This document shows, piece by piece, positions 28,827 to 50,799 of a stretch of 64,000 nucleotides of DNA (position 1 is the stretch's first letter; every line of letters starts with the position of its first letter). Location of the stretch: the NCBI RefSeq assembly GCF_964204865.1, contig NC_135262.1:7502001-7566000 (forward strand), written 5' to 3'. Both the position numbers and the translations under genes were made by a program. Origin of the DNA: Styela clava. Its lineage: Eukaryota. A model generated the notes under the pieces. The model was not told where the DNA came from. It saw nothing but the letters and a program-made list of their open reading frames with translations, and did not search any database.

Positions 28827-30133
28827 CCAGAACGATGTGGATTAGTTGGAAGAGATAGATATTTTGTCATCCGCAACATAGAATGATAAAATGCCATATC
28901 AGTTTTATTGTTCTCTGTTATGTTGATTATTTTACATTAGAAATTGCTTTTTAAATGAGCGCTATTCATGAGAGACTATCGGACTGCAATATAGTTTGCA
29001 AATTTGATTCTTGAGGACTACTCGCTGCCTGTACTGCCAATCAAGCGTAATTTAAAAACTTCAGTCTTCGCTGGAGCTTTGACTAGATCTTATCATTAAT
29101 AGCTATTCGTTTGAATGACGTATTTGTTTTTGGTACCTCATTAACATATAAACTCAAAATATGTAATAATTTCTCAATCTCCTTTGATTTCAATGTAATG
29201 ACTTCACAGATATAATGATGCGACCATAGAATATAACAGCATTAATATGCGCTGCAAGTTTGTGATCCTCGTAATATATATTTTCAAATATTGAGTGATT
29301 TTAAAGTTCTATATACCGGTAATAGTTTGGCTGCATCAAGTCTAACAAAAACTTGGACAACTTGATAGAGTTTTATTATAAACCTTTTGGTATTCCCAGC
29401 AAGGTAAATGGTTCAATTTGGAATAGGCCCACTAATACAAGGTATCAAAACAATGCGATCAAAATGATGTAAGGGTGCTACTGCCAGATCTATCTTATAA
29501 TAATCTTGCGTAATTTTCTACATACCTTTGGTAAAGGCTCAAATGAGATGCTGGCCTTGATTGAATTGTCAGGCAAAGCTCTGCATTGTGAGGCATTGAC
29601 CACTTTCAACACAGTAGTCAATGCTTGCATCCCCTGCATGAATTCTCTTATTTTTTTCCTAATGTTTCTTTCATTAAGTTATATATTCACATCTAAACTA
29701 TTTTTACCAATATACTTGGAATTTTGAAAAAGCAAGTGAGGTATGATAAAAACCGATTTGCGTCTCTGGGAATTTTCTCTCTCGGAAAATGAACTTGCTG
29801 AACGGAGCTGTATTTTGGTATTAAAATATTTGCATTTTATTTGTAATCTATTGGCGTTTATACCTGTCCTAAACCAAAAAAATGTTCTATCCAATGTAAT
29901 ATTCGTTGTTTCATGAGAATTTACGTAGATTGCAAACAACTTCGTCTGAATTTGGCAGTCGTTATGACGATTCTTTCGATTAACTGAATTTTGGTAAAGA
30001 TTTCACACAGCATCAGGCATAATTGATGAAGTTAACTACTTTGACCTGAAGCTTACTATGTAAACACTCAAGGATGTGCATTATGTTCGAATCTGGAATA
30101 GCATAAAACCAAGTGGGCAAGTGAATTCCATTT

Positions 30134-30462
30134 AGGATAGGATTTACATATTTATCCCGGGGGAGAGGAAAGCCGATAAGACGGCTTATCCATATGGCGA
30201 ACCACAGCCTCTCGTCCGGTTACCATTACAAGTCTGGTATGGGATTAGTTATATTGTTTGTTTTCGGAAGCATTGACTTGGTGGTGGAGGAAGCCGTAAC
30301 CGACCAGCGGTTACGTGAACTACCCAACGACGGCGAGGAGTCCAGCAATCCTCTCGCACATAACCATCTCTGCATGGGATTCGAACCTGCGAGCAGAGTA
30401 ATTAGAGGTGCGGTGGCGAGCGTATTCCTAACGCTTAGCCCGTTGAGCCACATCGCCGCGCC
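30134..30462 (-). mobile_element. tRNA-derived SINE with (ATCCT)n tail
   Basis: Minus strand: A box TGGCTCAACGGG, B box GGTTCGAATCC, tandem ATCCT tail; very similar to the copies at 33002 and 33737. Confidence 0.9.
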
Positions 30463-32299: not shown

Positions 32300-32520
32300 G
32301 GCGCGAGCCGAGGCCCTGAAAAACGCCTAGAAAGTGAGTTTCGTAGCGCACATCAGGTAACTACCTGAAAATAATTTAAAAATGTTCCTTAAAAATTTAG
32401 TAACAAATATTGCCTTGTTCCCACTTCCAAAAGTTGCACGTTTTACAGAAAAGACGCTTTTCAGGTAGTTACCTTATGTGCGCTGCGAAACTGAAAGATA
32501 AATGGCCTCGGCTCGCGGCC
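32300..32520. mobile_element. PIF/Harbinger (Tourist-like) MITE
   Basis: TIR GGC(C)GCGAGCCGAGGCC with extended inner inverted repeats (CAGGTAACTACCTGAAA); TAA on both flanks. Confidence 0.8.
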
Positions 32521-33001
32521 TAAAGAGAAAAGCGATTTCAACATGACGAAGGAGAAAAAGAACAACAACATAATATTGAAACGATCGTTGTGTACACTGA
32601 CGTGTCCAAAAACAAGTATAAAATTATTTGGACGAAACAGTGCAACCAACGACTACCAGTGCAACTGATTGCTTTGACGCAAACCACGGTGACGATGCGT
32701 ATTTTTGTTTAGGTCAAAGGTCAAATAATTGACGCGAACAAAACGCAAACAGGCTAAAAAGCCTTGCGTTTCAAGACTGGTCTATTTACAGATTTAGTTG
32801 ATAATCGTCATGTTTTTGGCGCGCTTTTGAGTTCGCTATTTGATTAAGGCGTATAATTAAGCACTAGCCTAGTATTGTAACCTGAATTTGCAGAAGGCCT
32901 GAAGTACGGTATGCCAGATGGAGACGACGAGGAGGAGGCAAATGAAGAAAGTGATAGAATGGAAGAAGAAGAAGAATTTGTAGAACACGTAAATACTTTT
33001 A

Positions 33002-33353
33002 GGATAGGATAGGATAGGATTTACATATTTATCCCGGGGGAGAGGAAAGCCGATAAGACGGCTTATCCATATGGCGAACCACGGCCTCTCGTCCGGTTAC
33101 CATTCCAAGTCGGGTATGGGATTAGTTTTACTGTATTGTTTGTTTTCGGAAGCATGGACTTGGTGGTGGAGGAAGCCGTAACCGACCAGCGGTTACGTGA
33201 ACCACCCAACGACGGCGAGGAGTCCAGCAATCCTCTCGCACATAACCATCCCTGCATGGGATTCGAACCTGCGAACCCACGCAGAGTAATTAGAGGTGCG
33301 GTGGCGAGCGTATTCCTAACGCTTAGCCCGTTGAGCCACACCGCCGCGCCGGG
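33002..33353 (-). mobile_element. tRNA-derived SINE inserted in LINE ORF1
   Basis: A and B boxes, (ATCCT)n tail, TSD CTTTTA (32996-33001, 33354-33359). Confidence 0.92.
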
Positions 33354-33736
33354 CTTTTAACATCAAATTTCCCTACAACAGATGGTTGAAAAGAGAAGAA
33401 ATAAAGAAATTGATATATGATCAAACGGCAATAGGAAGCATATCTAGCATATACTTTTTGGATAAGAAGAGCTGCTGGAGGATCAAATTGAAAACCAAAG
33501 AATTCTATGATAAAATAATCAAAAATGGAATTTCATACAAACACCAGGAAAATGTATACAATGCCAAACCAGAAGAGGTATATTCTAATGCCACTGAGGT
33601 AACACTCAGCTATGTACCTGTGGAAGTACCAGACAACACAATTAATAAAATTTTATCAAAATTTGGGGAGATAAAGTCGTTCAACAGATATTTGGACGAT
33701 GATGGTACGGAAAACGGAATCAGAAAGTGCAAAATA

Positions 33737-34090
33737 GGATAGGATAGGATTGGATTTACATATTTATCCCGGGGGAGAGGAAAGCCGATAAGACGGCTTA
33801 TCCATATGGCGAACCACGGCCTCTCGCCCGGTTACCATTCCAAGTCGGGTATGGGATTAGTTTTTACTGTATTGTTTGTTTTCGGAAGCATGGACTTGGT
33901 GGTGGAGGAAGCCGTAACCGACCAGCGGTTACGTGAACCACCCAACGACGGCGAGGAGTCCAGCAATCCTCTCGCACATAACCATCCCTGCATGGGATTC
34001 GAACCTGCGAACCCACGCAGAGTAATTAGAGGTGCGGTGGCGAGCGTATTCCTAACGCTTAGCCCGTTGAGCCACACCGCCGCGCCAACC
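33737..34090 (-). mobile_element. tRNA-derived SINE inserted in LINE ORF1
   Basis: Nearly identical to 33002-33353; TSD AAATA (33732-33736, 34091-34095). Confidence 0.92.
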
Positions 34091-35505
34091 AAATAATCAT
34101 GCATAGTGACATTCCACCAATAGTCAGACTTCCAAGTAGCTGTACAGGTGATGAATTTGGGGTTTATTACACCACAAGACCAGCTAACTTGAGGAAATTT
34201 GACAATTGGTGTTACATATGCCATTCTCTAAGTCACGAAGTGGAGGCTTGTCCAAGACGAAGGAAATGCAAATATTGTGGAGGAAAAGGAAAACCCCATT
34301 TAGAGAAAGATTGTATTGAGAAAAAACAAATCCAAAAAAGTCAAAATGCTAATCAAGAAAATACTGAAAATACAGATACGTCAAAATCTTATGAAAGAGC
34401 TGCCAGAGATCAAACCGTTTCCGTAATCAGTGAAATAACAAAAGAATTACAGAAACAAACAAGTGTAAACAAACAAAATACACAGTCACCATCAACAAAA
34501 ACTGGAAATAAAAATATATCCCAGAATAATGCCGGAGTCTCAAACTCAGGGCAAGAAATAACTAGAGGGAATCCAATAAATAACGTTGAGATGAGAAATA
34601 CAATACAAAAAACAATAAATCCTGAATCCTCGAAGAAAATAACAAATACCACAATAGATACTAGGTCAGCAAATAGCAATGTTGCGAAGATAAATCCCAG
34701 GAAGGACAAGAGCGCCGAGAATAAACCAGACTCATCAATGGAAGCCACTGAAACTGAAAATATGTTAACAGCCAGCAACCAGTCGGAGAACAAGAATGAA
34801 ATTCTACTCATTGGCGACTCCCAGATGGCGCACATGCAAAGAAAAATTAAAAACAAAAAGATTATAAAAAGAACTTACTCAGGAGGAACTTTTGAACGCA
34901 TAACCTTCGAAATAGAAAATGAACAAAGGAAATTTGGAAAAATTGTTGTTTATGCAGGTACAAACGATACCCATAAAACAGACGACGAAATTAAACAAGA
35001 TATACGGGAAATGATACACAAAGCAAGGGAATATAGTGACAATGTTTATATCTGTGGCATCATACCAATTCATGGAAGAAGTGCTGGTAAATATGGTTGT
35101 GACAGGATTAACAAACAACTTGAAAAAGAAGCACTGAAACAAGGAGTAGTATTTGTCCCAAAACCAGATTCTTTCTCAGAAGAAAAAATCATGGACAGCT
35201 ATTATTTAGATGATATGATGCATCTCAGTGCAACAGGAGCGGAAGTAGTCATCGAAAATATAAACGAATATGTGACACTTAGAGAACCAAAGCTAAAAAG
35301 GGCGACAGACGACAGCCCTCCAATAGCCAAGAAGCATGTGAAAAAATACCAACATGCATTGGATAAAACTGGAAGTTGAAACTCAACTACACTGATACAT
35401 GCAATTTGATAGCCCACATTAGCTCGTATTAGAAGTGAAGTATTTTTTTGCTTTCATAGGGAGATATTATCATAGTTTTCTTTTTCTTCATACAGGATAC
35501 ACATC

Positions 35506-38500
35506 ATGCATTTTAAAGAGGGAGTAAAGGTTTTAACTTATAACGTTAAGGGAATTCGAAACATGGCTAAAAGAAAATCAATTTTTGAATTTTTAAAAAG
35601 GGGAAAATCAGACATAATTTGCCTGCAAGAAACGCATTGTGGGTCAGATGAAGAAGCAGACGATTGGACAAAGGAATGGGGGAATAACGCATTTTGGTCC
35701 GTAAGTTCTAATATAACATGTGGTGTAGCAATTTTATTTTCAAGTAAAATGGATTCAGACTTATTTATTAAAGAAATTGACATAAATGGTAGATATATAA
35801 TTTTGACTTGGCAATCATCTGAATCTCTCCATATGTTAATAAATATATATGCACCAAATTCTTGTAGGGATAGAAAAGAATTTTTTGAGTTTATTGATAG
35901 TAAAATTGAATTTTATATAAGTTTGTTAACAACTCCACTATATCAAATTTGGCTGGGAGGTGACTTTAATTGCGTGTTAGATAAACTAGATAAATACCCG
36001 GAACAAAATTTCAGAAGAGATAATAGTATTGTAAAATTGGAGGAAATTATAGATAAATGGAATCTTGTTGATATTTGGCGTCATTTAAATTTAAATTCTA
36101 AAGTATATACATGGAAACAAAAAAGAGGCTGTTCGCGAATGGCCCAGAGTCGTTTAGATAGATGGTATTTATCTTCAAATCAAATCTATAATGTTATTAG
36201 AACAGATGTTGAAATGGCCACCTTTTCTGACCACTATCCATTTCAAATTGTTACTTCATCCTTTAAAAATGTAAAAAGAGGACCGGGTTATTGGAAATTT
36301 AATGCACAACTGATTGAATTTGAGTATTTTATCCTGGGAATTGAATCAATACTACAGGCATGGCATTTTAAATTATGTAACTTGGATGATGCAGAAAAGG
36401 GAGCTTTTTGGGACACATGTAAATCCAAAATAAAAATATGGGCAATCCATTGTAGTAAAATAAAAAAAGAATCAGACAATCAAAGGGAAGATAAATTACT
36501 AGTAAAATATAGAGAAGCATACAGGGAAATGCAAGATAATATAGAGGATGAGGACACTCATCAAGCAATACATGATACAGAATTAGAAATTAAGGAGTAT
36601 TATGAACAAAAATCCAAGGGGGCAATAATTAGGGCTAGAGTTAATTGGGCGGAAAAAGGGGAAAAATCGAATAAATATTTTTTGAATTTAGAGAAATCTA
36701 AAGGTAAAGCAAAAATGTTCAAATCTTTGAGGAAATCTGACAACTCTTTAGTTTATACATGTAAAGAAATTCAGGAAGAACAGGTCCAATTTTATAAAAA
36801 TCTGTATCAAAGTGATGAAAATTTGGACGTTAATATTCAAAATTATTTATTAAATAATTATCAGCAAAAAGTGTCAGATGAGCAAAAACAAGAAATGGAT
36901 AACGATTTAACAGAAGAGGAATTGGAAAATGCGTTCAAACAAATGAAGTTAAATAAATCCCCCGGCCTAGATGGTTTAACAAAAGAGTTTTATGTCAAAT
37001 TTTGGAAACAATTGCGCCCAATTCTCTTACTAATCTATAATAGTTATCATAAACAATCATGTCTGTCTCAGAACACAAGTCTTGGTGTAATAACTTTACT
37101 TTATAAAAAAGGAGATAAAAATGATATAAAAAATTGGAGACCTATTACTCTACTTAATTTCGAATATAAATTAATCGCAAAAGTTTTAGCTTTGAGAATG
37201 AAAGCAGTACTGCCTGATATAATAAATCATGACCAAACAGGATTTATTGAAGGAAGAACGATTCATGAAAATTTATTAACAATAAGAGATGACATTTTTT
37301 GGGCGAATAAACAAAACCAACCGTTAATAATTTTTAGTATAGACCAAGAAAAGGCTTACGATACTGTTGATAGAGTTTTGTTACTAAGAATATTAAAAAA
37401 AGTTAATTTTGGTAATTATTTCATTCGATGGGTCAATACCCTATTTAACAACACCAATGCAAAAATAATAACAAATGGATTTTTATCAAAGCAATTTAGT
37501 ATAACACGAGGAGTTAGACAAGGTTGCCCCCTTGCCCCACTTTTATATATTATAATGTCCGAATTGTTAGCATCCAGCATCAGATACAATAGAGCAATAA
37601 TAGGTTTTCAAAATTGTGCAGGAGATAGAGAGAAATATAAAGGTTTTGCGGATGACACTATTGTCACAGTAGAAAGTTTATCCTCCATAGATGAAGTATT
37701 AAAATTAATGGCAGAATTTGAAAAAGCTACAGGCTTGAGAATAAATATTCCAAAATGCAACATAATGTTGTGTGGGTCAGCAAAACGGCTAAACTTAGGA
37801 CCTTCATACAAGGGTATTCAAATTCAAGAAGAGCTTAAAATTCTAGGAGCTTATATAGGAAACAATGTTGTATCAAGAGATAAAAACTGGTTGAAAATCA
37901 TTAACTCAATTCAAAATGTAGTAAATTTATGGCAGGGACGAAAGTTATCAATGATAGGAAAAATTATTATTGTCAAATCATTAATGTTATCCAAAGTGTG
38001 GCACATTGCCAATTTTGAAATTATGCCAGGAAACTTCGTTCGAAAATTAGAATCTATAATATGGAAATTCATTTGGAATAATAAAACTCAACTAGTGTCA
38101 AGACAAATTACATCTAATATTTTCACATCCGGAGGTTTGAATATGTTAGACCTCAGGAGCCAAATAAAAGCTCTTCAGGTCAAATGGATTTTTAAAATCC
38201 TCAAAAACGAGAGTAGGCCATGGAGTAAAAGAGCCAATTATTTTATTAATAATTATTGTAATATTTTGTCCAAAGATAATTTGGAATGTCTGTATTTGAA
38301 AGTCCAATTTGACAAAGTAACTACCATACCTAATTTTTATACCGCCATTATCAATTCATTCAAGGATATTAAGTTGGAGAGAAATCATCCCTTTAATATT
38401 ACAGAGGTTAAAAATGAAATTTTATGGTACAATCCCTTAATCTCAGAGCAAAATTATAGATTTTCGTCCAAATGGATCCAAGCAAAAGTCATTTCTGTGG

Positions 38501-39306
38501 CTGATATTGTGGATAACACTGTGCATTATTTAACAAATAGAATATATTCTATTGATCAAATTGGGGATCACAGAAGAAAGCTCTTTTATTTAAATAGATG
38601 CTCTAGTGAAATCCAACAGGTTTGGGGCAATCTACCTATTAGCTGGAAAGAAATTCTATCGAGAAATCATAATTTACCCGAAAACAGACTTGGAATCGAT
38701 AGATATATGAACTCCAATTTATCCACCAAAAAAATAAGTAGTTTATTGAAAATAAGGAAAATCACAGAAATTGCTACACAGCATGATATGTACATTACAC
38801 AAAAATTAAATTTGAATATTCCTATAGACTGGTCAAATATTTGGCAATATAAACTCTCAAATAAATATAAAATTCTAAGTTGGAAAATTTTACATAATGG
38901 TTTACCTACGGGGGACAAATTAAAATATTGGTTTGATGATGAGAATGGACAATGTGTATTTTGTAATGAAAATGAAGAAACCTGTATACATTTATTTTGT
39001 TATTGTGATTGGATAATTGACTTTTGGCAGTGGTGCAATGTAAGGGAAATCAATTGTGACATAATTATTGCTAATAATATTCATAGTGAAGTGGTATCAT
39101 TAATCATTCAATGTGGAAAATCAGCCATATGGGAGTTCAGGAATAGTGTCAAATATGATGATGTATTCCAAATGCAATGTAACTTGCGAGCTATTTTTAA
39201 ATGCAAACTCCTGGGTGTAATCAGATTAATGTCAGATTTTGATAGGCAAAAAATATTATCTGACGAAATTGTTGATGAAGTACTACAAAAATCGATAATG
39301 AGTTGA
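35506..39306 (+). CDS. LINE ORF2: APE endonuclease, reverse transcriptase and C-terminal Zn finger (1266 aa, intact)
   Basis: YNVKG, CLQETH, GDFN, SRLDR and FSDH (APE); RGPGYWKFN (L1/Tx1 linker); KSPGLDG, NWRPITLLN, GVRQGCPL and FADD (RT); CVFC..ETCIHLFCYC. Confidence 0.96.
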   Translation: MHFKEGVKVLTYNVKGIRNMAKRKSIFEFLKRGKSDIICLQETHCGSDEEADDWTKEWGNNAFWSVSSNITCGVAILFSSKMDSDLFIKEIDINGRYIILTWQSSESLHMLINIYAPNSCRDRKEFFEFIDSKIEFYISLLTTPLYQIWLGGDFNCVLDKLDKYPEQNFRRDNSIVKLEEIIDKWNLVDIWRHLNLNSKVYTWKQKRGCSRMAQSRLDRWYLSSNQIYNVIRTDVEMATFSDHYPFQIVTSSFKNVKRGPGYWKFNAQLIEFEYFILGIESILQAWHFKLCNLDDAEKGAFWDTCKSKIKIWAIHCSKIKKESDNQREDKLLVKYREAYREMQDNIEDEDTHQAIHDTELEIKEYYEQKSKGAIIRARVNWAEKGEKSNKYFLNLEKSKGKAKMFKSLRKSDNSLVYTCKEIQEEQVQFYKNLYQSDENLDVNIQNYLLNNYQQKVSDEQKQEMDNDLTEEELENAFKQMKLNKSPGLDGLTKEFYVKFWKQLRPILLLIYNSYHKQSCLSQNTSLGVITLLYKKGDKNDIKNWRPITLLNFEYKLIAKVLALRMKAVLPDIINHDQTGFIEGRTIHENLLTIRDDIFWANKQNQPLIIFSIDQEKAYDTVDRVLLLRILKKVNFGNYFIRWVNTLFNNTNAKIITNGFLSKQFSITRGVRQGCPLAPLLYIIMSELLASSIRYNRAIIGFQNCAGDREKYKGFADDTIVTVESLSSIDEVLKLMAEFEKATGLRINIPKCNIMLCGSAKRLNLGPSYKGIQIQEELKILGAYIGNNVVSRDKNWLKIINSIQNVVNLWQGRKLSMIGKIIIVKSLMLSKVWHIANFEIMPGNFVRKLESIIWKFIWNNKTQLVSRQITSNIFTSGGLNMLDLRSQIKALQVKWIFKILKNESRPWSKRANYFINNYCNILSKDNLECLYLKVQFDKVTTIPNFYTAIINSFKDIKLERNHPFNITEVKNEILWYNPLISEQNYRFSSKWIQAKVISVADIVDNTVHYLTNRIYSIDQIGDHRRKLFYLNRCSSEIQQVWGNLPISWKEILSRNHNLPENRLGIDRYMNSNLSTKKISSLLKIRKITEIATQHDMYITQKLNLNIPIDWSNIWQYKLSNKYKILSWKILHNGLPTGDKLKYWFDDENGQCVFCNENEETCIHLFCYCDWIIDFWQWCNVREINCDIIIANNIHSEVVSLIIQCGKSAIWEFRNSVKYDDVFQMQCNLRAIFKCKLLGVIRLMSDFDRQKILSDEIVDEVLQKSIMS

Positions 39307-40051
39307 AGAAATTGAGATTGTCTTGATTTAGGAGGTTTGACTATATAAATGATTGCATAACATAGACAGATTAAATGAAAATCTAGTAGCATGATAGGTT
39401 TTTGAATTTTCTGTCTAATTTTTTTGAAACCTTCTCTTTTTCCATGCTAATATAAAATAATTAATTATATATGTACATAAAAATGTTATATTTATGACGA
39501 AATATGGACAATCTTCAATACAAACGGATATATGACGAAAAATGGATTATCATCACTGGGTTTGATATGTATTAAAAATTGTTTATCCAACTGTTTTAAT
39601 TTTCCTCAATTACCGTAATTGGAACGCAATACATGCAATTGGTTTCCAACAAACAAAAAAAAAATAAAATTATATAAAACAAAAACTGAAAATTTAATTG
39701 GATTCAAAAACATAATTAAATAATTCCATATTGACTCTGGAATTGAATTTGGCAAAAAAAAAAAAAAAGTTTTTGGCGTTTTGGTGAAAAGCCGAAAGGT
39801 GCGTGTTATCTATAACCAGTCAGTTTCTAATGTCAATACGGTACTTGTTAGCACTGTTTATTGACAGCGTTTTCATTCCACCACCGTTCATACTGTCAGT
39901 GTCAGACAGTAATGGCAGAATGGTGACTGGTGACAATCACGAGTTTTACCCGTGAAAGTGGATTTTCGCTCGCGTGTATTTTCGGGGAGCGCTAGCGTGC
40001 AATTGTCATGAAATCCAATCTGGCCTGTCGGTAGTTATCAAGTTGTATTAA

Positions 40052-40655
40052 ACGACACGCCAAACGTCCGCATGCAGAGATACCAAGACCGCGTGAAAAC
40101 CTAGATTCTTAGCGTGCAACTGGGAGAATGGCTCTATTTGAGAAAAGCCTTAATAAACAAATATAAAATTATTTGAACGGAACAGTGCAACTGCGTGACT
40201 TGACGCAAACCACGGTGACGATGCGTATTTTATATAGGTCAAACGTCAAATAATTGACACAAACAAAAAGAAAGGAACAGTTTCGTACAGGTATAAATTC
40301 TTTCGTTTTAAGACTGATCTATCTAGTTGGGATAGGATTTACATATTTATATCATTGATAATCGTCATGTTTTGCTGAAAAGCGGAAAGGTGCGTGTTGT
40401 CTATAACCAGTCACTTTGTAATATTGAAACCTGTTAGCACTGTTTGTTGACAGCTGTTACATTCCGCCACCCTTCATCTGTTCATACTGTCAAATATAAC
40501 TGTAATGGTGACTGGCTGACTGGTGAACAATCACGAGTTTTCTCTGTGAAAGTGGATTTTTGCTCGCGTATATTTTCAGGGAACGCTAGCATGCTCGGCG
40601 TGCAATTGCCATGTGATCCAATCTGACCTGTCGGTAGGTACCCTATCAAGTTGAA
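40052..40655 (+). repeat. Second copy of a tandemly duplicated CpG-rich promoter-like segment
   Basis: Colinear with 32115-32170, 32617-32821 and 39779-40050, i.e. the copy split by the LINE. Confidence 0.85.
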
Positions 40656-40766
40656 TTGAATATTTTTTTTAAAATTCATGTCTTTCATGCGGGTGATGTA
40701 ACAGGTTTAAATCATTTCTTTTTATAATAATCTGTTCTTCCAGCATTGTCAACAAAAATATTTACA

Positions 40767-42287
40767 ATGTTTAACCCACTGAACTTATTATCTGCCGAAT
40801 CACTTATCTTAATTTGCACACTTTTCTTGCTTGTGAGATATCTTCTTCAACGCAAATGGAGCATTCTCTCATCCTGGAATATTCCGCACGACCCTCCATC
40901 TGTTAGAAATTTTGGTCACGCAAAGATCATAGTATCAGAAAAAGTTTTTGAATACGAGTTAGAATGCAAGAAAAAATTTGGTCCCATATGGGGGTATTAC
41001 GTCATGACCGCTCCGAGAATTGTCATCCATGATCCAGAGATTCTGAAAGTAATATATATCAAAGAATTTTCAAAATTTCCAAATCGAGTGAATAAATTCA
41101 GACTCGTTCATGGAGAAGAATTAGCAAATGGTTTGTTGTTTACGCTTGATGATCAATGGAAGCGCATCAGAACGACTATGACGCCTACTTTTTCCACAGC
41201 AAAATTGAGGCAAATGGTTGGAATAGTGAAACGGTGTGGTGACGATACTATTGATGTATTTCGTCGCAAAATAAATTCAACAGATGGAATTTTTGTGGCA
41301 AGAAGTGTTTTTGGGGGACTTTCGATGGACGTTGTTTGTGCGGCTGCATTTAGTACTGACGTAAATTCGCAAGACGAAACCAAGATACAGCCTCGTATAA
41401 CAGCCAATGCAAATAAGTTTTTCAGGACTGGATTTTTTCAAGCTTCATTTCTGATTGCTGCAATATTTCCGTTTTTAGAGGGTTTGGTATCAAAACATGC
41501 AAGCCAGAGAAGTCATATTGTGTATTTTCGTGACTTGTGTCATGATTTAATGGAACAAAGACGTAAAGAAAAAGGGGATAGAGTCGATTTAATGCAATTA
41601 ATGTCAGATGCGGAAGTTCCAGAATCAGAATTGAAAGATGATGCTAAAAAGGGAATGTCAGAATTGGAGATAATCGGAAATTCTATCACAATGCTTTTTG
41701 CTGGATATGAAACAACAAGTACAGCTATGTCATTTTTGGCATACAACTTAGCCCAGTATCCCGAAACCCAGAAGCAACTTCAGACAGAAATTGATAAAAT
41801 GTTCGAAGAATGTGTTGAGTTGGATTATGATAGTGTAAATCAGCTGAAATTTCTTGATATGTGCTTGAATGAGAGTTTACGTTTGTATTGCCCCATTCCA
41901 CGGAACTCAAGAATCGCCAAGGAAGAAGTCACCATTGGTGGGCTCACCATTCCGAAAGGATCACTTGTAGCCATTCCGATTTATGCCTTGTGTCATGATC
42001 CCGACTACTGGGAAGATCCGATGGAATTCAAGCCAGAAAGAATGAGAAATATGGATGAAATTGACAACATTATTTTCCAACCGTTTGGCTGTGGACCAAG
42101 AAATTGCATTGGAATGAGGTTTGCAATGATGGAAATCAAAATCACATTCTGCAAACTCCTGCATCTATTTAGCTTTGAACCAACAGCTGAAACACCGAAG
42201 CCACCACTGAAGCTTAAATATGATTTGACCACCAGATCTAAAGTTAATTTTAATCTGAAAGTCGTGCCCAGAGATAGAAACCCCTAA
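40767..42287 (+). CDS. Cytochrome P450 clan 3 (CYP3-like), intronless, copy 1
   Basis: N-terminal membrane anchor, WKRIR, AGYETTS, ESLR, PERM, FGCGPRNCIG heme motif. Confidence 0.95.
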   Translation: MFNPLNLLSAESLILICTLFLLVRYLLQRKWSILSSWNIPHDPPSVRNFGHAKIIVSEKVFEYELECKKKFGPIWGYYVMTAPRIVIHDPEILKVIYIKEFSKFPNRVNKFRLVHGEELANGLLFTLDDQWKRIRTTMTPTFSTAKLRQMVGIVKRCGDDTIDVFRRKINSTDGIFVARSVFGGLSMDVVCAAAFSTDVNSQDETKIQPRITANANKFFRTGFFQASFLIAAIFPFLEGLVSKHASQRSHIVYFRDLCHDLMEQRRKEKGDRVDLMQLMSDAEVPESELKDDAKKGMSELEIIGNSITMLFAGYETTSTAMSFLAYNLAQYPETQKQLQTEIDKMFEECVELDYDSVNQLKFLDMCLNESLRLYCPIPRNSRIAKEEVTIGGLTIPKGSLVAIPIYALCHDPDYWEDPMEFKPERMRNMDEIDNIIFQPFGCGPRNCIGMRFAMMEIKITFCKLLHLFSFEPTAETPKPPLKLKYDLTTRSKVNFNLKVVPRDRNP

Positions 42288-42698
42288 CTTTCCTCCAGGA
42301 ATACCAGTATATGTATCTCCTATTTTATCCACTTATATGCATGTTTGAATGTAATAGAATCATGTAAAATGAGTTATATAAGTCTTCTATAAAAATCTAG
42401 TCAAACTACTATTCTATCAGGAACTCGACTTGCTACATAGTGTAATTTACAACATGTTGACGAGGCAAATTGAGGGAGTTGCAAAATGCAGCAGAATTGA
42501 AAAATAAGAATAATTTATACTCTAGATCAAATGGAATTTGCTGAATTTCAGCTTGGATGAAACTTAACTCAAATATTTTTATACATTTTCTATATCTTTC
42601 GACTCTGGACAAGGCTCTGCACAATAAGCCACTGATATTGCTATTTAATTTGTAAAGATTGAAATGTAACGTAACATGTATTGTTCCTTGATATTGTA

Positions 42699-43006
42699 CA
42701 GGGGTGTGAAACATTTTTTGTTGGTGGGCCATATAACCAACTTCAGACATTCAGCTGGGCCACACAAAAATTTTTGTTTTTCCATGTACACAACGATTTA
42801 AAATATTCTCACAAGGCAAAATTTAATTTATAGAATAGGAGAAAAAAACATGATATATTTTTACCCGCGTGAGCGTTTTTTAAACATAAACTGTCGGAAT
42901 AGGATTTCATACTTAATAGGGATTAATTTGAGTGTCGACAAGAGCCACACTAAATGGCTTTGATAGGCCAGGTTATGGCCTGCAGGCTGCCTGTTGCACA
43001 CCCGTA
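42699..43006. mobile_element. hAT MITE
   Basis: CAGGGGTGTGAAACA / TGTTGCACACCCGTA; TSD ATATTGTA on both sides. Confidence 0.7.
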
Positions 43007-46000
43007 ATATTGTATATATTTGTATTGTTCTTGTGCCTTGTATGTGTCAAACACACCACTGTTTTCCATAATATATTAATTGATATTTTTGGGCAAAAAA
43101 ACACATGGTTATCTATGCAGGATGTCTTAAAGACAGGATTCAATTGAAAAAAAAGTTAGATGCAATAAAATAATCGAATCCTTTTATTCTCAGATTCAAA
43201 TTCTGCCGTTAATACCAAAATGTACTCGATTCTTTTTTGTGACTTTTGTGACTTGTGACAATGTGACTTTTGTAACATTTGATGAAAAGTTCTACAATGT
43301 GTTCTTAGGTTAGGTATTTAACTTCGGGCAAATTGTTTTAGTAAGCTTAAGATGGGGTTTATTATGGAACCAATGGTTTGGCAAAATGTAACCAATATTA
43401 GAATTGATTTATATTATATTTCTTTTTCTCTCATGCTGCCTTTCACATGATATTAATATGATATATCATATATGTATATTTTTAAATTTCATCTTATATT
43501 GTTTATATGATGCATGCTTGGAACTTGCTCTAATATTTCACTCAAGATGATCTTTACACTAAAAAAATTTGTTCAGTTTTCAGCAACAAAACTATTGCAA
43601 CTTTAAATGTAATACACATTATTTCACTTTCAGGAAATTTATTCTATACACGACAACACATACATGTATTCTATTGTTAATAGGTTGATCTTGCTTTGAT
43701 ACACATAACTATTGAAAATATATCATTTCTTCAGTGAGGTGCTAGTCACCCAATCTGTTTTTACAGTAACAAATACTTGAAAATAAGTTTTACATCTTGT
43801 CAGGTATTAAATTATATGTTTCGAATTATATTATTTGTTTTGCTTCTCTTTATAACATAGAGTATAATATTGCTGTATATACATTTTTTGATTTTTTGTT
43901 TAATCATAACACATTGTTTAACTTCATTTTTAACCCGAAGTTTTCAATTTTCTTCTTCTCGTTTAGTCATTTGCTTGAATAGTAGGGTCCGATGCTGCAC
44001 AGCTGTTTGTTAAATGTATGCTGTGTGATAAATTTAGCACTTACATGGTGTTGTATACTCAAGGGTGTTATTTCCACTTCAGAAAACTGTTCTTCACAGT
44101 AAAAAATTCTTTCACATTTTCTGATTTTTTTTATGAAAGAGATAGGTTTTGAGTTGCTGTCATTTGTTTTATTATTAAGTGTTGTTTACAAAATTATTGG
44201 AAATCCCACATTAGGAAGCTATTAACTGTATTCACATTTTGCACTTTCATTATTTTAAGTGCAGTTTATTATTTGCTAATAATAATCATCAAGGATGTGA
44301 AATAAATATCTAAAGTGTAATGTAGCTCTTACTACTATAGTATTTAGCACTGTATAGCCAAACTAAAATATTGTGTTTATCCATATTGTCAGCATGATAT
44401 TTTTTTCAGGTGGCTCAAAAGAGGCCTAATTGCAACATTTTTTTACACATATTTAAAAAAAATATATAATCATATTATGTTCCTTCCCTCTATATATTTG
44501 TGTTTTTTTTTTGTAGATTTTAAACTTGAATAATGATGATGTACTTAACTTGACTGACCTATTAGAAGAAATCCAGAAGTGAGATTATTCTATTTTTCTA
44601 TCGTGAATAGTACATGCATTGGAAGTATGCATCTTCTAACTCAAATATTCATGATTATATGATACTGAACCATGGATGCATATATAAGCAAGTAAGCGTA
44701 AGTAATATTTTATTCCTGTTCTATTAGATTTCACACTTTCGGGGAAGATATATTTGCATAACAGCAAGTATTTTATATATTTTATTTACCATATTTGAAT
44801 ATAAATTTTATTGGTAATAATCTATGGATTTCCACTTGGATTGTACTTACACTACTTTTACTGTTATGTATCGATATAAAAAGGACTGTAAATTATGTAA
44901 AAATTGCCAATCAATCCAATTTTGCAAGGTTTCTTTTTTTATTTTGCCATAAAATCACAGTTTGGTCAGGTGTGCTTATATATTTATCTAACCCTGACAT
45001 GGGCAAGTTACGGCCAGAGGGCCAATTCAATCTGGCCCGCCTGATACTTCCGCCACCAAATTGAAACCAAATTTTGATTATTTAGCGTAAGAAATAGCTC
45101 AAAAAATTTGTTGAGATTGCGATCAGATTTAGGTTTGGCACAAGGTTTATTTTTATCCACTTTTGCTTTCGTAACACTGTAAATATTGTTCATAAAATAT
45201 ACCTAACTTTTATGTCACATTTACATGGTCCGACCTTCTAGATGGGCAAAATTTTTGGCCCTTCGTCGAAAACCTTGCCCACTCCTGTATTAACCTCAGA
45301 TCAAGATTTATGTATTTCATGCAAATTTAGTTCCTAATTAATTTTGGTCCTTCTGAAGTATGCGCACCAAGATGGCGCACAACCTGAACTCAGGTTATTA
45401 CAGTAGTTTAAATCCATATTTCTCATTTCAACCCAATATTGCATATTTTTTGAAAAGCTATGAATTTTACTGTATGCTAAACTTGAATCGATTAAAATTT
45501 AGTAAAAATATTTCATTTGAATGAATAGACATATTTTGTTAACAACACTCCTACTCTCCTAGTATACAAATCTGATATTAAATTAATAATACTGGCGGTT
45601 GTTTACCTTGAAACCTAACTATTGTTTTTGACATGTACCGGTAATACTTTTCAACCTTATAAAAAACCTTTTGTGATAATCTGTATTGTAGATTTATATC
45701 AGACTTGAAAGAGATTTTTTTTCCATCCATTATAATATTAGGTATAAAGAGTTAAATCAAATATTATTTTTCATTATACAATCCTCAGAATACATGTTAA
45801 TTTTCACTGATTGAGGTTATTGTATTGGGAATTTGTTGCTGCCCCATATTAGATATTGAAATTGGGCTATTTGTTAGTAAAAAGTGTTATCTATTATGCA
45901 CCTTTCAACATACCTAAGTCAAACTGGATTTGGTAGTATTTGATGAGGTTGACTTGTCAAAATTTTTCAGCCATGTACCTTGACAGTTGACATATATTGG

Positions 46001-46349
46001 TAGTATTTTTTGTTGTAATCATTACTCTTATTAACATTTTTGGCAACTACCGTAGTTTTCCTCAAGTTTAATGCATTTGCCATCAAAATTTTATTCTCCA
46101 TACCCATTTTTGGCTTTGTTTAGTTCAATTTTTTTGATAAATTTGTTTTCACCTGATATGCTTTGGTTCCAAAAATCTTGTAATTACATACTGTAGTCTG
46201 TATTGGTTTATAAAGTCAATTCAAAACTCCAGAACAATATTTTTGGCATTAACTCCGACTGCTCAGTATAAGCAAGAAAGGTAGCCGATTTTTAACCCCT
46301 GTAAATAATACTTGTGTTTATTTTCAGAAAATTACTACCTATCATAATT

Positions 46350-47885
46350 ATGCAATATTTTTTTGAATATTTGTCCTTTGAAACATGGATACTATTAGGC
46401 TCTTTGATCCTGTTGGCAAGATATTATATTCAACTAAAATGGAGTATGTTGGACAGCCTGCATATTCCACATGACCCACCTTCTATTTGGAACTTCGGGC
46501 ATTTGAAGCAAGCAGTTATGAACAGAATTTCCAATTATGACTCTGATCAGAAAGAAAAACACGGTCCAATTTGGGGTTATTATGTTTTCTTTCGGCCTAG
46601 GATAGTCTGCCATGACTTGGAAATACTTCAGCAAATATTTATTAAAGAATTTTCAACTTTTCGTAATAGATTGGGTGGATTTGCGGGTTTAAATGGAGAG
46701 GAAATGGCGAATGGTTTACTCGAAGCTGCGGACAGCCAGTGGAAGCGTATGCGTAAAACAATGACCCCAACATTTTCTACTTCCCGGCTGAGACAAATGT
46801 TTAATATCATTGACTGGTGTACGAATAATACTCTTGCTGTATTTAAAAATACGGTTGACAGGAAAAATGGAGTGTTTACAGCCAAAGATGTTTTCTCAAG
46901 ATTGTCCCTTGATGTCATATGCTCATCTGCTTTTAGTACTGATGTTAATTCACAAGATGATTCTAAAGATGAGCCTCAAATCTCTGTCAATGCTAAAAAT
47001 CTTTTTAAGAATAGTCGTTTTGATCCAACATTTCTTATTAGCATTATGTTTCCATCACTTGGGAGTAAACTTTTTAAATTTAGTAAGAGAAGTCCTCTGT
47101 TTCGTTATTTTAATGATGTATGCAAGAAAATAATACAGCAGAGAAATGCTGAAGATTCTCTTTCAAATCGGATTGACTTATTACAACTTATGTTGAATTC
47201 TAAAGTCCCTGCTTCTGAGTTGGACAAAGATTCCAAGAAAGGAATGTCAGAAATAGAGATAATTGGAAATTCGATCGTTATGATTTTAGCTGGATATGAA
47301 ACCACCAGTACTGTCATGTCATTTCTTGCTTATAATTTGGCTCAATATCCTAAAGTTCAACACAAACTTCAAGCTGAAATAGATGAAATGTATGAAACGA
47401 AAGATTCGCTAGACTTTGACACTGTGAATTCACTTCAATATCTTGATATGTGCATTAATGAAAGTATACGCCTCTACACACCAGTTCCCAGAACAGTTCG
47501 TAAGAGTAATAAAGACATTACTCTTAGTGGTTTAACAATACCTAAAGACATGTTGATTGTAATACCAATTGCTTCACTTTGCCACGATCCTGAGTATTGG
47601 AACGAACCCATGGAATTTCAACCAGAAAGAATGAGAAATGTAAATGAAATGCATCCTATGGTATTTCAGCCATTTGGAAGTGGACCAAGAAATTGTATTG
47701 GTATGCGGTTCGCATTAATGGAGGTAAAAGTTGCATTCTGTAAACTCCTGCATGAATTTAGTTTTAAGCCGACTTTAGATACCCCTGTACCTCCACTGCA
47801 AATAATAGTTAATGCGTCTACCATTCGGCCAAAGGTAAACTTTAATCTTCAAATTGTACCAAGGATGAATCAGGTAGATAGATAG
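46350..47885 (+). CDS. Cytochrome P450 clan 3 (CYP3-like), intronless, copy 2
   Basis: AGYETTS, ESIR, PERM, FGSGPRNCIG. Confidence 0.95.
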   Translation: MQYFFEYLSFETWILLGSLILLARYYIQLKWSMLDSLHIPHDPPSIWNFGHLKQAVMNRISNYDSDQKEKHGPIWGYYVFFRPRIVCHDLEILQQIFIKEFSTFRNRLGGFAGLNGEEMANGLLEAADSQWKRMRKTMTPTFSTSRLRQMFNIIDWCTNNTLAVFKNTVDRKNGVFTAKDVFSRLSLDVICSSAFSTDVNSQDDSKDEPQISVNAKNLFKNSRFDPTFLISIMFPSLGSKLFKFSKRSPLFRYFNDVCKKIIQQRNAEDSLSNRIDLLQLMLNSKVPASELDKDSKKGMSEIEIIGNSIVMILAGYETTSTVMSFLAYNLAQYPKVQHKLQAEIDEMYETKDSLDFDTVNSLQYLDMCINESIRLYTPVPRTVRKSNKDITLSGLTIPKDMLIVIPIASLCHDPEYWNEPMEFQPERMRNVNEMHPMVFQPFGSGPRNCIGMRFALMEVKVAFCKLLHEFSFKPTLDTPVPPLQIIVNASTIRPKVNFNLQIVPRMNQVDR

Positions 47886-49187
47886 TTTTATTGGAGTTCA
47901 CTTCAAATTTCTTGAACTTTTCTTATATATGGAATACATCTCGAACAAGTATTATATTATATATACACAATTAAATTTCTAAATATATTACATCTCCACT
48001 TCATATCAATAACACATACGGTATATTTTTTAAAGGCATAACTCGGGTTTAAATATTTCAGATTCAATGGTACTTGATATACCAGTATTTTAAACTCAGG
48101 GGAATATTTAATAATTCAAATGGTATTTTTCTACTATATTAGAATTATATATATTGGTATGGACCCTCTTCCAAAGTCATTGACTGTGGCGCTAGCTGAA
48201 TAAATTTGTATAATTACTCACCTACATCATTTATCTGTATTGATATGTATCAGTACTTGATTTATAATATTAGCTAAAGAGATACCTTTTCATAACCATG
48301 TAGATTTTTATTAGTATAATCATATTTTTAGATTACTGCCACAAGATTATCAGTTTCATAAATGTTATTTATTATTATTTCATTTTTCATTTGCTGTAAA
48401 TATTGCATTACTTTTTATATTTTATACCAGAATCATAGTTTGATATATTTTCAGCATTAGTGTATCATTAGAATTGTTTCAGGATCTATGTATCATTTTG
48501 CAAAATTATTATTGTTCTTGTTGGGGTTTGTTGCCTTGTGGGGTATTCTTCTCTCTTTTCTCCACCAATAATGGACCAATCAATTCTAACTTTGTAGTAC
48601 TTTAATTAATAAAGTTCTATACTAATTCTCAGCTAAGCTTTCACTGGTACTGAAGTAAATTGCCTCAGTTGTTGTCTATGACCGACTATTCACTTATTTC
48701 AAGTCTTTTATTATTTATTTCACCTTCGTTCCCATATTTCTGAACATTTCTATATTATTTATATTAAGTTTAATAGTAGTAAAATTCAGTCAAAAATAAG
48801 GAATGGCTTGTGACCTGTCGTGAGTTCTAAAAAAGTACAGAAGCTAAATTGTTGGGGCATTTATTAAAACTCATGCATATGCATATTTTTACAGTAGGCC
48901 TTTTAAGTTATTGCATGTTGTTAGAGTAGTACTTGAAATGAAACTAGATTTCTGTTACTGGTAATATATTGTCATGAAATACTCTCAAGTTGGTCACACA
49001 ATACACTTGAAGTTCATTGTATTATTTATTTGTGTATTTGAACTTGTCTTTTTTCACTTGCTCCAACTTGTCAGTATTCAATATGTCTTATGATTTTGTA
49101 CAGTTCTATATCATATGCAAATAAACTGTCATCTTTTTTTTTATCAGTTCACATTCAGTATTTGCTGTCTGTATTTTGTCAGGAATT

Positions 49188-50708
49188 ATGACTTATTTTT
49201 TGGAATATTTGTCATTTGAGACATGGATACTCATTGTCTTTTTGTTGCTGCTGGCAAGATATTATATTCATCGTGAATGGAGTGTTTTGAGCCGGCTGCA
49301 AATACCTTATGATCCACCTTCCATGCTCAACCTTGGTAATTTGAGACAAGCGATGTCGAATGAGGTGTTTACTTATGACTTGGACCACAAGGAAAAATAT
49401 GGTTTGATTTGGGGTTTCTATGCATTACTGAGACCCAGAATAGTTTGTCATGATTTGGAAATACTTCAACAAATATTCATCAAAGAATTTTCGAGTTTTC
49501 CAAACAGATCGCCAAATGCTGCAGGAATAAACGGGAAAGAAATGCAAAATGCTCTGATAGAATCAAAAGATGGCCAATGGAAACGTATGCGCAAAACAAT
49601 AACTCCAACATTTTCTACTTCTAAGTTGAAACAAATGCTCAATATTATGGACTGGTGTGTCAAAAACACTTTTTCAAGTCTCCAGAAAAAGATCGAACAA
49701 ACAAATGGAGTTTTTTCAGCCAAAGATGTTTTTGCAAAATTGTCACTCGATGTCATATGCTCATCCGCTTTTAGTACTGATGTTAATTCACAAGATGAAT
49801 CTAAACAGGAGCCTCAAATCTCTGTCAATGCAAGAAATATTACTAAAATGGGTAATGACCCTACTCTTTACCTGAGCATTTTGTTTCCATGGATTGGTCC
49901 TAAACTTTATGAATACAGCAGAAGGAAACCTGGGATTCAGTTTTTAAGTAATGTTTGTAAAAAAATAATACAGCAGAGAAATGATGATGATTCTGTTTCA
50001 AACCGGGTGGATTTACTACGGCTTATGTTGGATTCCAAAGTCAAGACTTCTGATATAAATAAGGATTTGAAAAAAGGATTGTCAGAAATAGAGATCACCG
50101 GAAATTCGATTATTATGATTCTAGCAGGATATGAAACCACCAGTACCACCATGTCATTTCTTGCTTATAATTTGGCTCAATATCCTGAAGTTCAACGCAA
50201 GCTTCAAGCTGAAATTGATGAAATGTACAGAATTAAAGGGGTACTTGATTATGATGCTGTTAATTCTCTTCAATATCTTGACATGTGCATAAATGAAAGT
50301 ATTCGTCTCTACACACCTATTCCCAGAACTTACCGTACAAGCAATAAGGAGATAACTCTCAGCGGCTTTACCATTCCCCATGGTATGGTAGTTGTAGTTC
50401 CAATTTATGCTCTTTGTCATGACCCAGAGCATTGGAATGATCCCATGGAATTTCAACCAGAAAGAATGGAAAATATAAATGAAATGCATCCAATGCTGTT
50501 TCAGCCATTTGGAAGTGGACCAAGGAATTGTATTGGTATGCGGTTCGCATTAATGGAAGTGAAAATTGCATTCTGTAAACTTCTACATGAGTTCACATTC
50601 GAGCCGACATTGGATACTCCCAAACCCCCATTGAATCTGGTAATAAATGGTAACACTAGTCGCTCAGAAGTAAATTTCAATCTTCGAGTTGTGCCTAGAG
50701 AAAGTTGA
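49188..50708 (+). CDS. Cytochrome P450 clan 3 (CYP3-like), intronless, copy 3
   Basis: Same motifs; closest to copy 2. Confidence 0.95.
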   Translation: MTYFLEYLSFETWILIVFLLLLARYYIHREWSVLSRLQIPYDPPSMLNLGNLRQAMSNEVFTYDLDHKEKYGLIWGFYALLRPRIVCHDLEILQQIFIKEFSSFPNRSPNAAGINGKEMQNALIESKDGQWKRMRKTITPTFSTSKLKQMLNIMDWCVKNTFSSLQKKIEQTNGVFSAKDVFAKLSLDVICSSAFSTDVNSQDESKQEPQISVNARNITKMGNDPTLYLSILFPWIGPKLYEYSRRKPGIQFLSNVCKKIIQQRNDDDSVSNRVDLLRLMLDSKVKTSDINKDLKKGLSEIEITGNSIIMILAGYETTSTTMSFLAYNLAQYPEVQRKLQAEIDEMYRIKGVLDYDAVNSLQYLDMCINESIRLYTPIPRTYRTSNKEITLSGFTIPHGMVVVVPIYALCHDPEHWNDPMEFQPERMENINEMHPMLFQPFGSGPRNCIGMRFALMEVKIAFCKLLHEFTFEPTLDTPKPPLNLVINGNTSRSEVNFNLRVVPRES

Positions 50709-50799
50709 ATGGATAAATGATTTTTTATTTCAATAATTACATTTCCCTAATTATGCAGTACGCTATTCTTCAATTATTATTGATATCAACATCACAATT

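What the first reader, a model, noticed from the sequence alone, without database searches (positions are those of the whole stretch)
32911..35379. Hybrid ORF1p: RRM-like and CCHC gag modules fused to an intact SGNH esterase in an L1/Tx1-type LINE
Seen: the reconstructed 583-aa ORF1 has an acidic N-terminus and an RRM-like region (EVTLSYVPVEVPDNTINKILSKFGEI..ENGIRKCKI). It then has CX2CX4HX4C and CX2CX6HX4C knuckles, a ~170-aa N/T/K/Q-rich linker, and an SGNH hydrolase with all four blocks (GDSQ, GGT, GTND, DMMH; Ser-Asp-His triad present). Known: esterase ORF1s are described mainly from CR1/L2/RTE-related elements, whereas L1/Tx1 elements carry RRM/CCHC or coiled-coil ORF1s. ORF2 here has the L1/Tx1 RGPGYWKFN signature and the element ends in poly(A). 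Inference: module capture between clades giving an uncommon architecture, possibly membrane- or lipid-binding RNPs. I cannot confirm that it is undescribed.
Basis: partly seen in the sequence, partly recalled or inferred. Interest (0 to 1): 0.7.

Follow-up and report, generated by a model that had tools for sequence, protein, structure and literature searches.

The report
LINE ORF1 with RRMs plus esterase
A jumping gene of the LINE-1/Tx1 group, probably from a sea squirt, encodes an RNA-packaging protein that also carries an intact lipid-type esterase, a pairing that a 2013 structural study reported never finding and thought might be mutually exclusive.

Summary
Observation confirmed. 32822-39768 is a full-length LINE with a 10-bp target duplication and poly(A). 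Its ORF1 is interrupted here by two young SINEs; removing them by their own duplications gives 583 codons, and SINE-free contigs from two other studies show that form exists. ORF1p is two RRMs (own-sequence model pLDDT 89), two CCHC knuckles, a 162-aa linker and an SGNH esterase with all catalytic residues (Pfam above cut-off; best solved match is the ZfL2-1 ORF1p esterase). ORF2 is L1-group, though no labelled CR1/L2/RTEX sequence could enter the tree. Four natural relatives (two named from Styela clava) keep the same order; 0 of 80 related LINE loci carry an esterase. Schneider 2013 states no esterase ORF1p had an RRM; ten paper searches found no such element, Repbase unchecked. Against the simple membrane model: this esterase is near-neutral (pI 6.6) and lacks the H191/S228 pair. 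Extra: the element starts with a spliced-leader-like motif. New variant of a known kind.

The parts
32812..32821 (+). 5' copy of the element's 10-bp target site duplication (GTTTTTGGCG)
   Evidence: a paralog at 40183-40660 (74%) matches both flanks across the empty site
32822..32910 (+). 5' UTR, 89 nt; 32836-32848 matches the last 13 nt of the Ciona spliced leader at 12 of 13 positions
   Evidence: 0.31 such matches expected in the whole window, both strands
32911..33001 (+). ORF1 piece 1: start codon, acidic N-terminus, start of RRM1
   Evidence: acidic N-termini also in P0001, P0003, P0004
33002..33353 (-). SINE insertion 1: tRNA-like head with A/B boxes (read by eye), (TCCTA)n tail, 6-bp duplication
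   Evidence: absent from X6 contig 8
33354..33736 (+). ORF1 piece 2: RRM1 and first part of RRM2 (ZCCHC3/Tx1-type tandem RRM)
   Evidence: AlphaFold pLDDT 89.4; Foldseek top hits all tandem-RRM proteins, best E 2e-6; Z 9.3, rmsd 1.8 A over 68 residues to an RRM
33737..34090 (-). SINE insertion 2, 337 of 339 aligned bases identical to insertion 1, 5-bp duplication
   Evidence: absent from X5 contig 1 and X6 contig 8
34091..34209 (+). ORF1 piece 3 begins: rest of RRM2
   Evidence: aligns with intact relatives; strands in the P0003 model
34210..34314 (+). two zinc knuckles, CX2CX4HX4C and CX2CX6HX4C
   Evidence: 15 to 26 of 35 residues identical in four relatives
34315..34800 (+). 162-aa low-complexity linker
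   Evidence: all 4 listed non-synonymous ORF1 differences in other runs fall here
34801..35274 (+). SGNH esterase, Ser-Asp-His triad and oxyanion Gly/Asn present
   Evidence: Pfam PF13472 above cut-off; PDB 4c1b E 1e-6 with the catalytic positions aligned
35275..35379 (+). basic C-terminal tail (pI 10) and stop; basic cluster kept in relatives
   Evidence: an NLS pattern matched 4 of 6 tails, not the window's own
35380..35505 (+). 126-nt spacer with a 7-codon uORF (ATG 35399) and two pyrimidine-tract + YAG sites (35457, 35493)
35506..39306 (+). intact ORF2, 1266 aa: APE endonuclease, RT, zf-RVT; L1-group
39307..39768 (+). 3' UTR ending in 15 A (39754-39768)
39769..39778 (+). 3' copy of the target site duplication

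Best explanation
A small, old family of L1/Tx1-group LINEs, probably of ascidians, in which an ordinary type I ORF1p (tandem RRM + two CCHC knuckles) gained a C-terminal SGNH esterase from the pool shared by other retroelements. Shown: the architecture, its persistence in relatives at 21-43% identity, the intact catalytic set, the L1-group ORF2. Inferred (my odds): capture from another retroelement and not from a host gene, 0.75; the domain is an active short-acyl esterase, 0.7; RRMs and knuckles package the element's RNA while the esterase, on its flexible linker, docks the particle on membranes or lipids, with the basic tail supplying the positive charge that the domain lacks, 0.4. The copy in the window is dead for ORF1p because two SINEs landed in it after insertion.
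For: Frame and motifs. SINE-free contigs in two studies, one running into ORF2. Tandem RRM fold of the window's own piece; RRM-RRM plus SGNH folds in the model of the intact relative P0003. Four relatives with the same order; all 4 proteins found by the RRM-only profile among 8000 scored candidates carry the esterase; pairwise identities of RRM part and esterase part track each other (Spearman 0.61, p 0.06, 10 non-independent pairs); family esterases form one group, SH-aLRT 86. Triad kept in 4 of 5 complete domains. Best solved match is a retroelement esterase (1e-6) ahead of bacterial ones (2e-3). ORF2: zf-RVT above cut-off, human L1 ORF2p E 8e-87 against R2 6e-22. RT falls in a 100/99 group with L012, whose ORF1 is RRM-like + knuckle without esterase. 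No esterase in 1789 ORFs of 80 related loci. ZfL2-1 esterase is active and binds anionic lipids (PMC3905857).
Against: No DNA context for the four relatives was obtained, so their link to an L1-group ORF2 is untested. No labelled CR1, L2, RTEX or Tx1 sequence is in the RT trees, and the AU test did not reject a tree holding the window with five RTE-like rows (p 0.19). Esterase pI 6.6 (relatives 5.5-9.3); Y/C replace H191/S228, whose double mutant was inactive in ZfL2-1; the gate residue I144 is Gln in all members. P0028 has lost the catalytic His. The Pfam score is only 1.2 bits above cut-off. The similarity to L012's ORF1 is weak (hhalign probability 0.4, E 0.16). Group support of 86 for the family esterases is below the starred level. 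Nothing was assayed.
Confidence: 0.72

Rival explanations
1. Same architecture and history, but the esterase does not work at membranes. It removes acetyl or other short acyl groups from a soluble or RNP-bound substrate, and the basic tail is a nuclear import signal that takes the domain to the nucleus.
For: Near-neutral domain (pI 6.6) and a polar Gln at the acyl-pocket gate in all 6 family rows; basic tail with Ser-Pro in most relatives; fold matches include acetyl-xylan esterase and PAF acetylhydrolase.
Against: ZfL2-1 esterase showed no peptidase, phosphatase or histone-peptide deacetylase activity (PMC3905857); the NLS pattern missed the window's own tail; three relatives do have basic domains (pI 8.9-9.3).
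Confidence: 0.3
2. The SGNH domain is kept as a non-catalytic binding module (as in Oskar's OSK domain) or is a fading passenger.
For: Weak OSK hit, E 0.021; P0028 has lost the His and the block I Gly; H191/S228 equivalents changed.
Against: Ser, Gly, Asn, Asp and His are all kept in 4 of 5 complete domains that are only 24-39% identical to the window's; the one listed difference inside the domain in other runs is silent; OSK also scores weakly on 50 of 119 esterase hits.
Confidence: 0.15
3. The element belongs to an esterase-bearing clade (RTEX, CR1, L2) and it was the RRM-knuckle part that was captured.
For: No labelled references in the trees; AU test against RTE-like rows not significant (p 0.19).
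Against: zf-RVT present, no PF14529 or DUF1891 hit at E up to 1; endonuclease closest to L1 endonuclease structures; RT sits in a 100/99 group of zf-RVT elements apart from the 100/100 RTE-like group; poly(A) tail, which PMC13343379 says only Zenon has among CR1-group elements.
Confidence: 0.05
4. The fusion is an accident of this copy or of the reconstruction (an esterase fragment nested in frame).
For: The copy is interrupted twice and the family is scarce in the databases.
Against: SINE-free contigs and four uninterrupted natural relatives with the same order.
Confidence: 0.02

Closest known systems
ZfL2-1 ORF1p and type IV esterase ORF1ps of CR1, L2, RTEX and Penelope-like elements (PDB 4c1b; PMC3905857, PMC4120745)
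   Same: C-terminal SGNH esterase in ORF1p with S/G/N/D/H in register, behind a poorly conserved linker.
   Different: Those have a coiled coil and often an arginine-rich motif and, by PMC3905857, no RRM or other folded RNA-binding domain; none of the 24 elements in its Table S1 is L1 or Tx1. Here: two RRMs and two knuckles, L1-group ORF2, near-neutral domain, Y/C for H191/S228, Gln gate.
Type I ORF1p (RRM directly followed by CCHC knuckles) of Tx1-type, plant L1, Jockey and I elements; host ZCCHC3 RNA-binding domains (PF23057/PF23058)
   Same: Tandem RRM then gag-like knuckles; weak PF23058 hits in three relatives; ZCCHC3-type clusters at 0.93 in the Atlas for P0004 residues 20-232.
   Different: An added 158-aa enzyme domain; the second knuckle has CX2CX6HX4C spacing.
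Human L1 ORF2p / Tx1-type ORF2
   Same: APE endonuclease, RT, C-terminal zinc finger, poly(A), target duplication.
   Different: Target duplication is not A-rich; closest database RTs are only about 40-47% identical.
Unclassified invertebrate ORF1-like proteins with esterase followed by CCHC knuckles (P0006, P0030, P0043 and others)
   Same: Esterase and knuckles in one chain; Y/C is the commonest pair at the H191/S228 positions (29 of 127 rows).
   Different: Opposite order, PHD or coiled coil in front, no RRM family with more than one member among 119; their host elements were not seen.
GDSL ORF3 of bdelloid Vesta LTR elements and Athena/Terminons (PMC5408684)
   Same: Independent gain of an SGNH esterase by a retroelement that already has a gag-type protein.
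   Different: Separate ORF in LTR or Penelope-like elements, not fused to RRMs; reported not to cluster with LINE esterases.

Membership tests
L1 group (L1/Tx1) non-LTR retrotransposons | ORF2 with N-terminal APE endonuclease of the L1 type | tested here: met
   Top 9 solved matches are L1 endonuclease or its variants, E 1.5e-17 to 2e-13, ahead of cellular AP endonucleases
L1 group (L1/Tx1) non-LTR retrotransposons | RT closest to L1, with C-terminal zf-RVT finger | tested here: met
   Human L1 ORF2p E 7.7e-87 over residues 7-901, R2 5.8e-22; PF13966 46.5 bits, cut-off 27.5
L1 group (L1/Tx1) non-LTR retrotransposons | RT phylogeny against labelled clade references | tested here: inconclusive
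   No labelled CR1/L2/RTEX/Tx1 rows available; window in a 100/99 group apart from RTE-like rows (labels by motif, recalled); AU p 0.19
L1 group (L1/Tx1) non-LTR retrotransposons | poly(A) tail and target site duplication | tested here: met
   15 A and a 10-bp duplication
Tx1 subgroup | RT groups with Tx1 rather than L1 proper; often sequence-specific insertion | tested here: inconclusive
   Type I ORF1 and grouping with L012 fit Tx1; one insertion only, inside a locally duplicated repeat
Type I ORF1p | one or two RRMs directly upstream of CCHC knuckles | tested here: met
   definition from PMC4120745
SGNH hydrolase | blocks I, II, III, V with Ser, Gly, Asn, Asp/His on a five-stranded flavodoxin-like fold | tested here: met
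   for the window's sequence; fold from the model of relative P0003
SGNH hydrolase | ester hydrolysis | not testable with these tools
   needs an assay
ZfL2-1-like (type IV) esterase ORF1p | coiled coil in front of the esterase and no folded RNA-binding domain | tested here: not met
   tandem RRM and knuckles present; a long helix follows the knuckles in P0003, coiled coil not tested in the window
ZfL2-1-like (type IV) esterase ORF1p | transposon-specific H191 and S228 | tested here: not met
   Tyr and Cys in the window; H/S in only 21 of 127 aligned esterases
ZfL2-1-like (type IV) esterase ORF1p | strongly basic esterase that binds anionic lipids | tested here: inconclusive
   pI 6.6 for the domain, 10.0 for the tail; binding itself not testable

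The most novel reading that the evidence does not exclude
An undescribed ascidian L1/Tx1 lineage whose ORF1p joins the two ORF1p classes thought to exclude each other, with an active esterase under selection, and which is expressed like a host operon: the RNA is capped by spliced-leader trans-splicing at its 5' end (the leader is copied into new insertions) and ORF2 is released as its own mRNA at an acceptor just before its start codon.
Probability: 0.22. Interest if true: 0.82.

Novelty: new variant of a known kind. Interest (0 to 1): 0.6.

Why it matters
The role of the esterase in LINE ORF1 proteins has been open since it was described. PMC3905857 found no esterase ORF1p with an RRM and suggested the two might be redundant or mutually exclusive. 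This family shows they coexist over long divergence and extends the esterase to the L1 group, so the esterase is better seen as an add-on than as a substitute for RNA binding. Because RNA packaging sits in separate folded domains, the esterase can be mutated without destroying the particle, which makes a cleaner test than ZfL2-1, whose ORF1p was dispensable in HeLa cells. The limit: ORF1 domain shuffling and repeated esterase capture are both known, so the kind of event is not new.

Tried and rejected
No whole genome is held, so copies could not be counted directly. DNA context for relatives: the family profile found nothing in metagenome or viral contigs; an alignment of other esterases and the ORF2 alignment found nothing in viral contigs. 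CR1/L2 references: no PQGS-type RT motif (motif recalled) among the 80 loci and no second RT in the window. The careful 78-row RT tree did not finish; the quick tree gave the window no starred set, so a 31-row tree chosen by me was built. No RNA holder listed; X5 and X6 are only guessed to be RNA, so expression is not claimed. The SINE's 3' end does not resemble this LINE's 3' end (best E 1.4), so I rejected this LINE as its obvious partner. ARAGORN and Rfam did not score the SINE head; the single Rfam hit (MIR8675, far below gathering score) is a flank hairpin. Earlier scan notes held no look-alike by sequence or place. Khazina and Weichenrieder 2009 is not held. PMC10351740 passages gave no statement that ZCCHC3 derives from Tx1, so that link rests on Pfam/Atlas similarity only. 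No stolidobranch leader sequence was found in the papers read. No complex prediction was run.

Full report
1. What is in the sequence. The region holds three ORF1 pieces in different frames and an intact 1266-aa ORF2 at 35506-39306. The gaps are two minus-strand copies of one SINE of about 350 bp (tRNA-like head read by eye, TCCTA-repeat tail), 337 of 339 aligned bases identical; a third copy at 30130-30462 is 94% identical. Each insertion has its own duplication (6 and 5 bp). Keeping one copy of each gives 583 codons without a stop, with knuckles at residues 195 and 214 and esterase blocks at 396, 419, 444 and 529. The element is bounded by a 10-bp duplication at 32812 and 39769 and ends in 15 A; a paralog at 40183-40660 matches both flanks across the empty site. 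It is therefore a full-length insertion of about 6.2 kb that later took two SINEs. As it stands, this copy's ORF1 stops after 31 codons.

2. The reconstruction is real. Four runs were laid on 32500-40000. X6 contig 8 (2134 nt) covers 32857-32995, 33354-33725 and 34091-35663 in one record, skipping both SINEs and entering ORF2; the six letters between pieces two and three fall in a stretch the tool masks. X5 contig 1, from another study, crosses the second junction. Of the 22 listed differences that fall in the two ORFs (69 further rows were not shown), 11 are silent and none is a stop; the 4 non-synonymous ORF1 changes are all in the linker. In raw reads of X19 the LINE body has depth of about 3 and the SINE several thousand, so the LINE family is scarce; there was no single-copy control.

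3. Domains. The window's own piece 33356-33736, folded with four relatives' segments, gives pLDDT 89.4 with a complete RRM and the first part of a second. All Foldseek rows shown are RRM proteins (best HuR RRM1-2, E 2e-6), and the wide search gives Z 9.3, rmsd 1.8 A over 68 residues. Pfam alone barely sees it (RRM_1, E 0.088). The esterase passes the Pfam cut-off narrowly (34.1 against 32.9 bits). Its best solved match is the ZfL2-1 ORF1p esterase (E 1e-6), with Ser, Gly, Asn, Asp and His in register. I did not fold the window's esterase; a model of intact relative P0003 (mean pLDDT 64, higher in the domains) matched SGNH esterases and tandem-RRM proteins.

4. A family. Searching 1.84 billion representatives with the C-terminal piece gave 119 hits. 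P0001, P0003, P0004 and P0028 carry RRM, knuckles, linker and esterase in this order without interruption; P0002 and P0005 are esterase fragments. P0002, P0004 and P0028 are named from Styela clava; P0001, P0003 and P0005 are unnamed. From this I infer an ascidian host. Identity to the window is 25-42% in the RRMs and 21-39% in the esterase, 67% for the P0002 fragment. An RRM-only profile found 4 proteins among 8000 scored candidates, all four with the esterase; the whole-family profile found 2 of 7809, so these word searches are lossy. The six family esterases form one group at SH-aLRT 86 in a tree of 66 rows (60 of 108 other esterases used), with no supported sister. P0028 lacks the first RRM and the catalytic His and ends in an Ets domain, probably a merged gene model. 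I could not get DNA around any relative, so their ORF2s are unseen.

5. Clade. ORF2 has Exo_endo_phos, RVT_1 and zf-RVT above cut-off and no PF14529 or DUF1891 hit. Human L1 ORF2p matches at 7.7e-87, R2 at 5.8e-22; the endonuclease's best nine matches are L1 endonucleases or variants. In a 31-row tree the RT sits in a 13-row group (100/99) that includes L012, apart from plant-L1-like and RTE-like groups (labels come from motifs I recall). L012's ORF1 has a knuckle and weak in-register similarity to the RRMs but no esterase. Against: no labelled CR1/L2/RTEX/Tx1 rows, and an AU test did not reject holding the window with the RTE-like rows (p 0.19). L1 group is well supported; Tx1 versus L1 proper is not settled.

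6. How rare. An esterase profile built from 127 segments hit none of 1789 ORFs in the 80 related loci; 18 of these loci have the ORF2 start and at least 1.2 kb upstream. Pfam on 19 upstream ORFs of 15 loci gave coiled-coil, Transposase_22-like, knuckle or NADAR hits and no SGNH. Among the 119 esterase hits, 4 have knuckles only upstream (the family) and 51 have a knuckle-like motif downstream (pattern count); the only RRM-type family with two or more members is PF23058, in family members. So esterase with knuckles is common in databases; esterase with RRMs is not.

7. Mechanism. Shown: architecture, conservation, catalytic residues. From PMC3905857: the ZfL2-1 domain hydrolyses pNP-acetate and butyrate slowly, binds anionic lipids and not oligo(A). 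Inferred: RRMs and knuckles bind and chaperone the element's RNA, and the esterase is an accessory on a flexible linker. I put activity at 0.7 and a membrane role at 0.4. The domain is not basic (pI 6.6; relatives 5.5-9.3), has Tyr/Cys for H191/S228 and Gln at the gate; a basic tail (pI 10) follows it and could supply charge or act in nuclear import. An NLS pattern matched 4 of 6 tails but not the window's.

8. A lead outside the finding. Bases 32836-32848, within 27 nt of the 5' duplication, match the last 13 nt of the Ciona leader (PMC7986045) at 12 positions; 0.31 such matches are expected in the whole window and one other occurs, at 60479. The test was made after I saw the motif. By the table arithmetic, X5 contig 1 stops matching at 32856 with about 22 letters unlaid, which would fit a leader of about 28 nt joined at 32862; X6 has 51 unlaid letters, which does not fit; I did not see these letters. 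The only two pyrimidine-tract + YAG sites on the element's sense strand lie in the 126-nt spacer before ORF2, but the background is 1.8 per kb and 5 of 14 related spacers have such a site too. Operon-like expression is possible, not shown.

9. Literature. [quoted passage not shown] PMC4120745 (passages): type IV only in CR1 and L2 subgroups; ORF1 shuffling is common. PMC5203782 (passages, section 16, one of two supplementary files searched): L1 ORF1 survey with no esterase; the unsearched file may bear on this. PMC5408684, PMC13343379, 10.1101/788562, PMC11203168, PMC10351740, PMC5478143, PMC5940361, PMC3691228, PMC3074122, PMC7986045, PMC1636649: passages only. Searches listed no paper describing an esterase ORF1 in L1/Tx1; search 92 none on trans-spliced tunicate LINEs. 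Not seen: Repbase, Dfam, Kapitonov and Jurka 2003, Khazina and Weichenrieder 2009, Kojima and Fujiwara 2004. I put the chance that the architecture is undescribed at about 0.65.

10. Verdict. Real, a small family, L1-group, and a counter-example to a published generalisation. It works like a type I ORF1p with a ZfL2-1-like enzyme added; it is not a member of the ZfL2-1 class, whose defining lack of RRMs and H191/S228 pair are not met. New variant of a known kind; interest 0.6.

Noticed in passing
window 32822-32861: The element's 5' end carries a spliced-leader-like motif (12 of 13 to the Ciona leader's 3' end) followed by a shorter similar stretch also ending in ATTAAG, like a leader plus a relic.
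   Followed up: partly
window 35380-35505: Two splice-acceptor-like sites and a 7-codon uORF just before the ORF2 start; such sites occur nowhere else on the element's sense strand, but in 5 of 14 related spacers.
   Followed up: partly
window 30130-30462, 33002-33353, 33737-34090: A very abundant young SINE (tRNA-like head, TCCTA tail); two near-identical copies hit the same ORF1 736 bp apart in the same orientation. Its partner LINE is not this one by 3'-end similarity.
   Followed up: partly
window 32657-32821 with 39779-40052, and 40183-40660: The LINE sits inside one copy of a locally duplicated repeat (74% identical paralog); whether this is a preferred target is unknown.
   Followed up: partly
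window 40731-57536: Cluster of at least five intronless cytochrome P450 ORFs of 518-527 codons on the + strand, plus a sixth partial match near 50848.
   Followed up: no
window 7375-8091: Intronless thymidylate kinase ORF (Pfam E 4e-47).
   Followed up: no
window 532-971 and 3184-6047: The same 72-bp tandem unit in inverted orientation (6 and 40 copies) flanking about 2.2 kb, resembling a foldback-type element.
   Followed up: no
window 32333-32495: Hairpin with 35-bp inverted arms (94%) upstream of the LINE, likely a MITE.
   Followed up: no
L003:1-996: ORF1 of an L1-group element ending in a NADAR domain (E 2.5e-44); 9 of 119 esterase proteins also carry NADAR.
   Followed up: no
P0006, P0030, P0043, P0055 and others: 51 of 119 esterase proteins carry CCHC-like knuckles downstream of the esterase, some with PHD or RNase H1 N-terminal domains in front; this too departs from the 2013 statement. 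Host elements not seen.
   Followed up: partly
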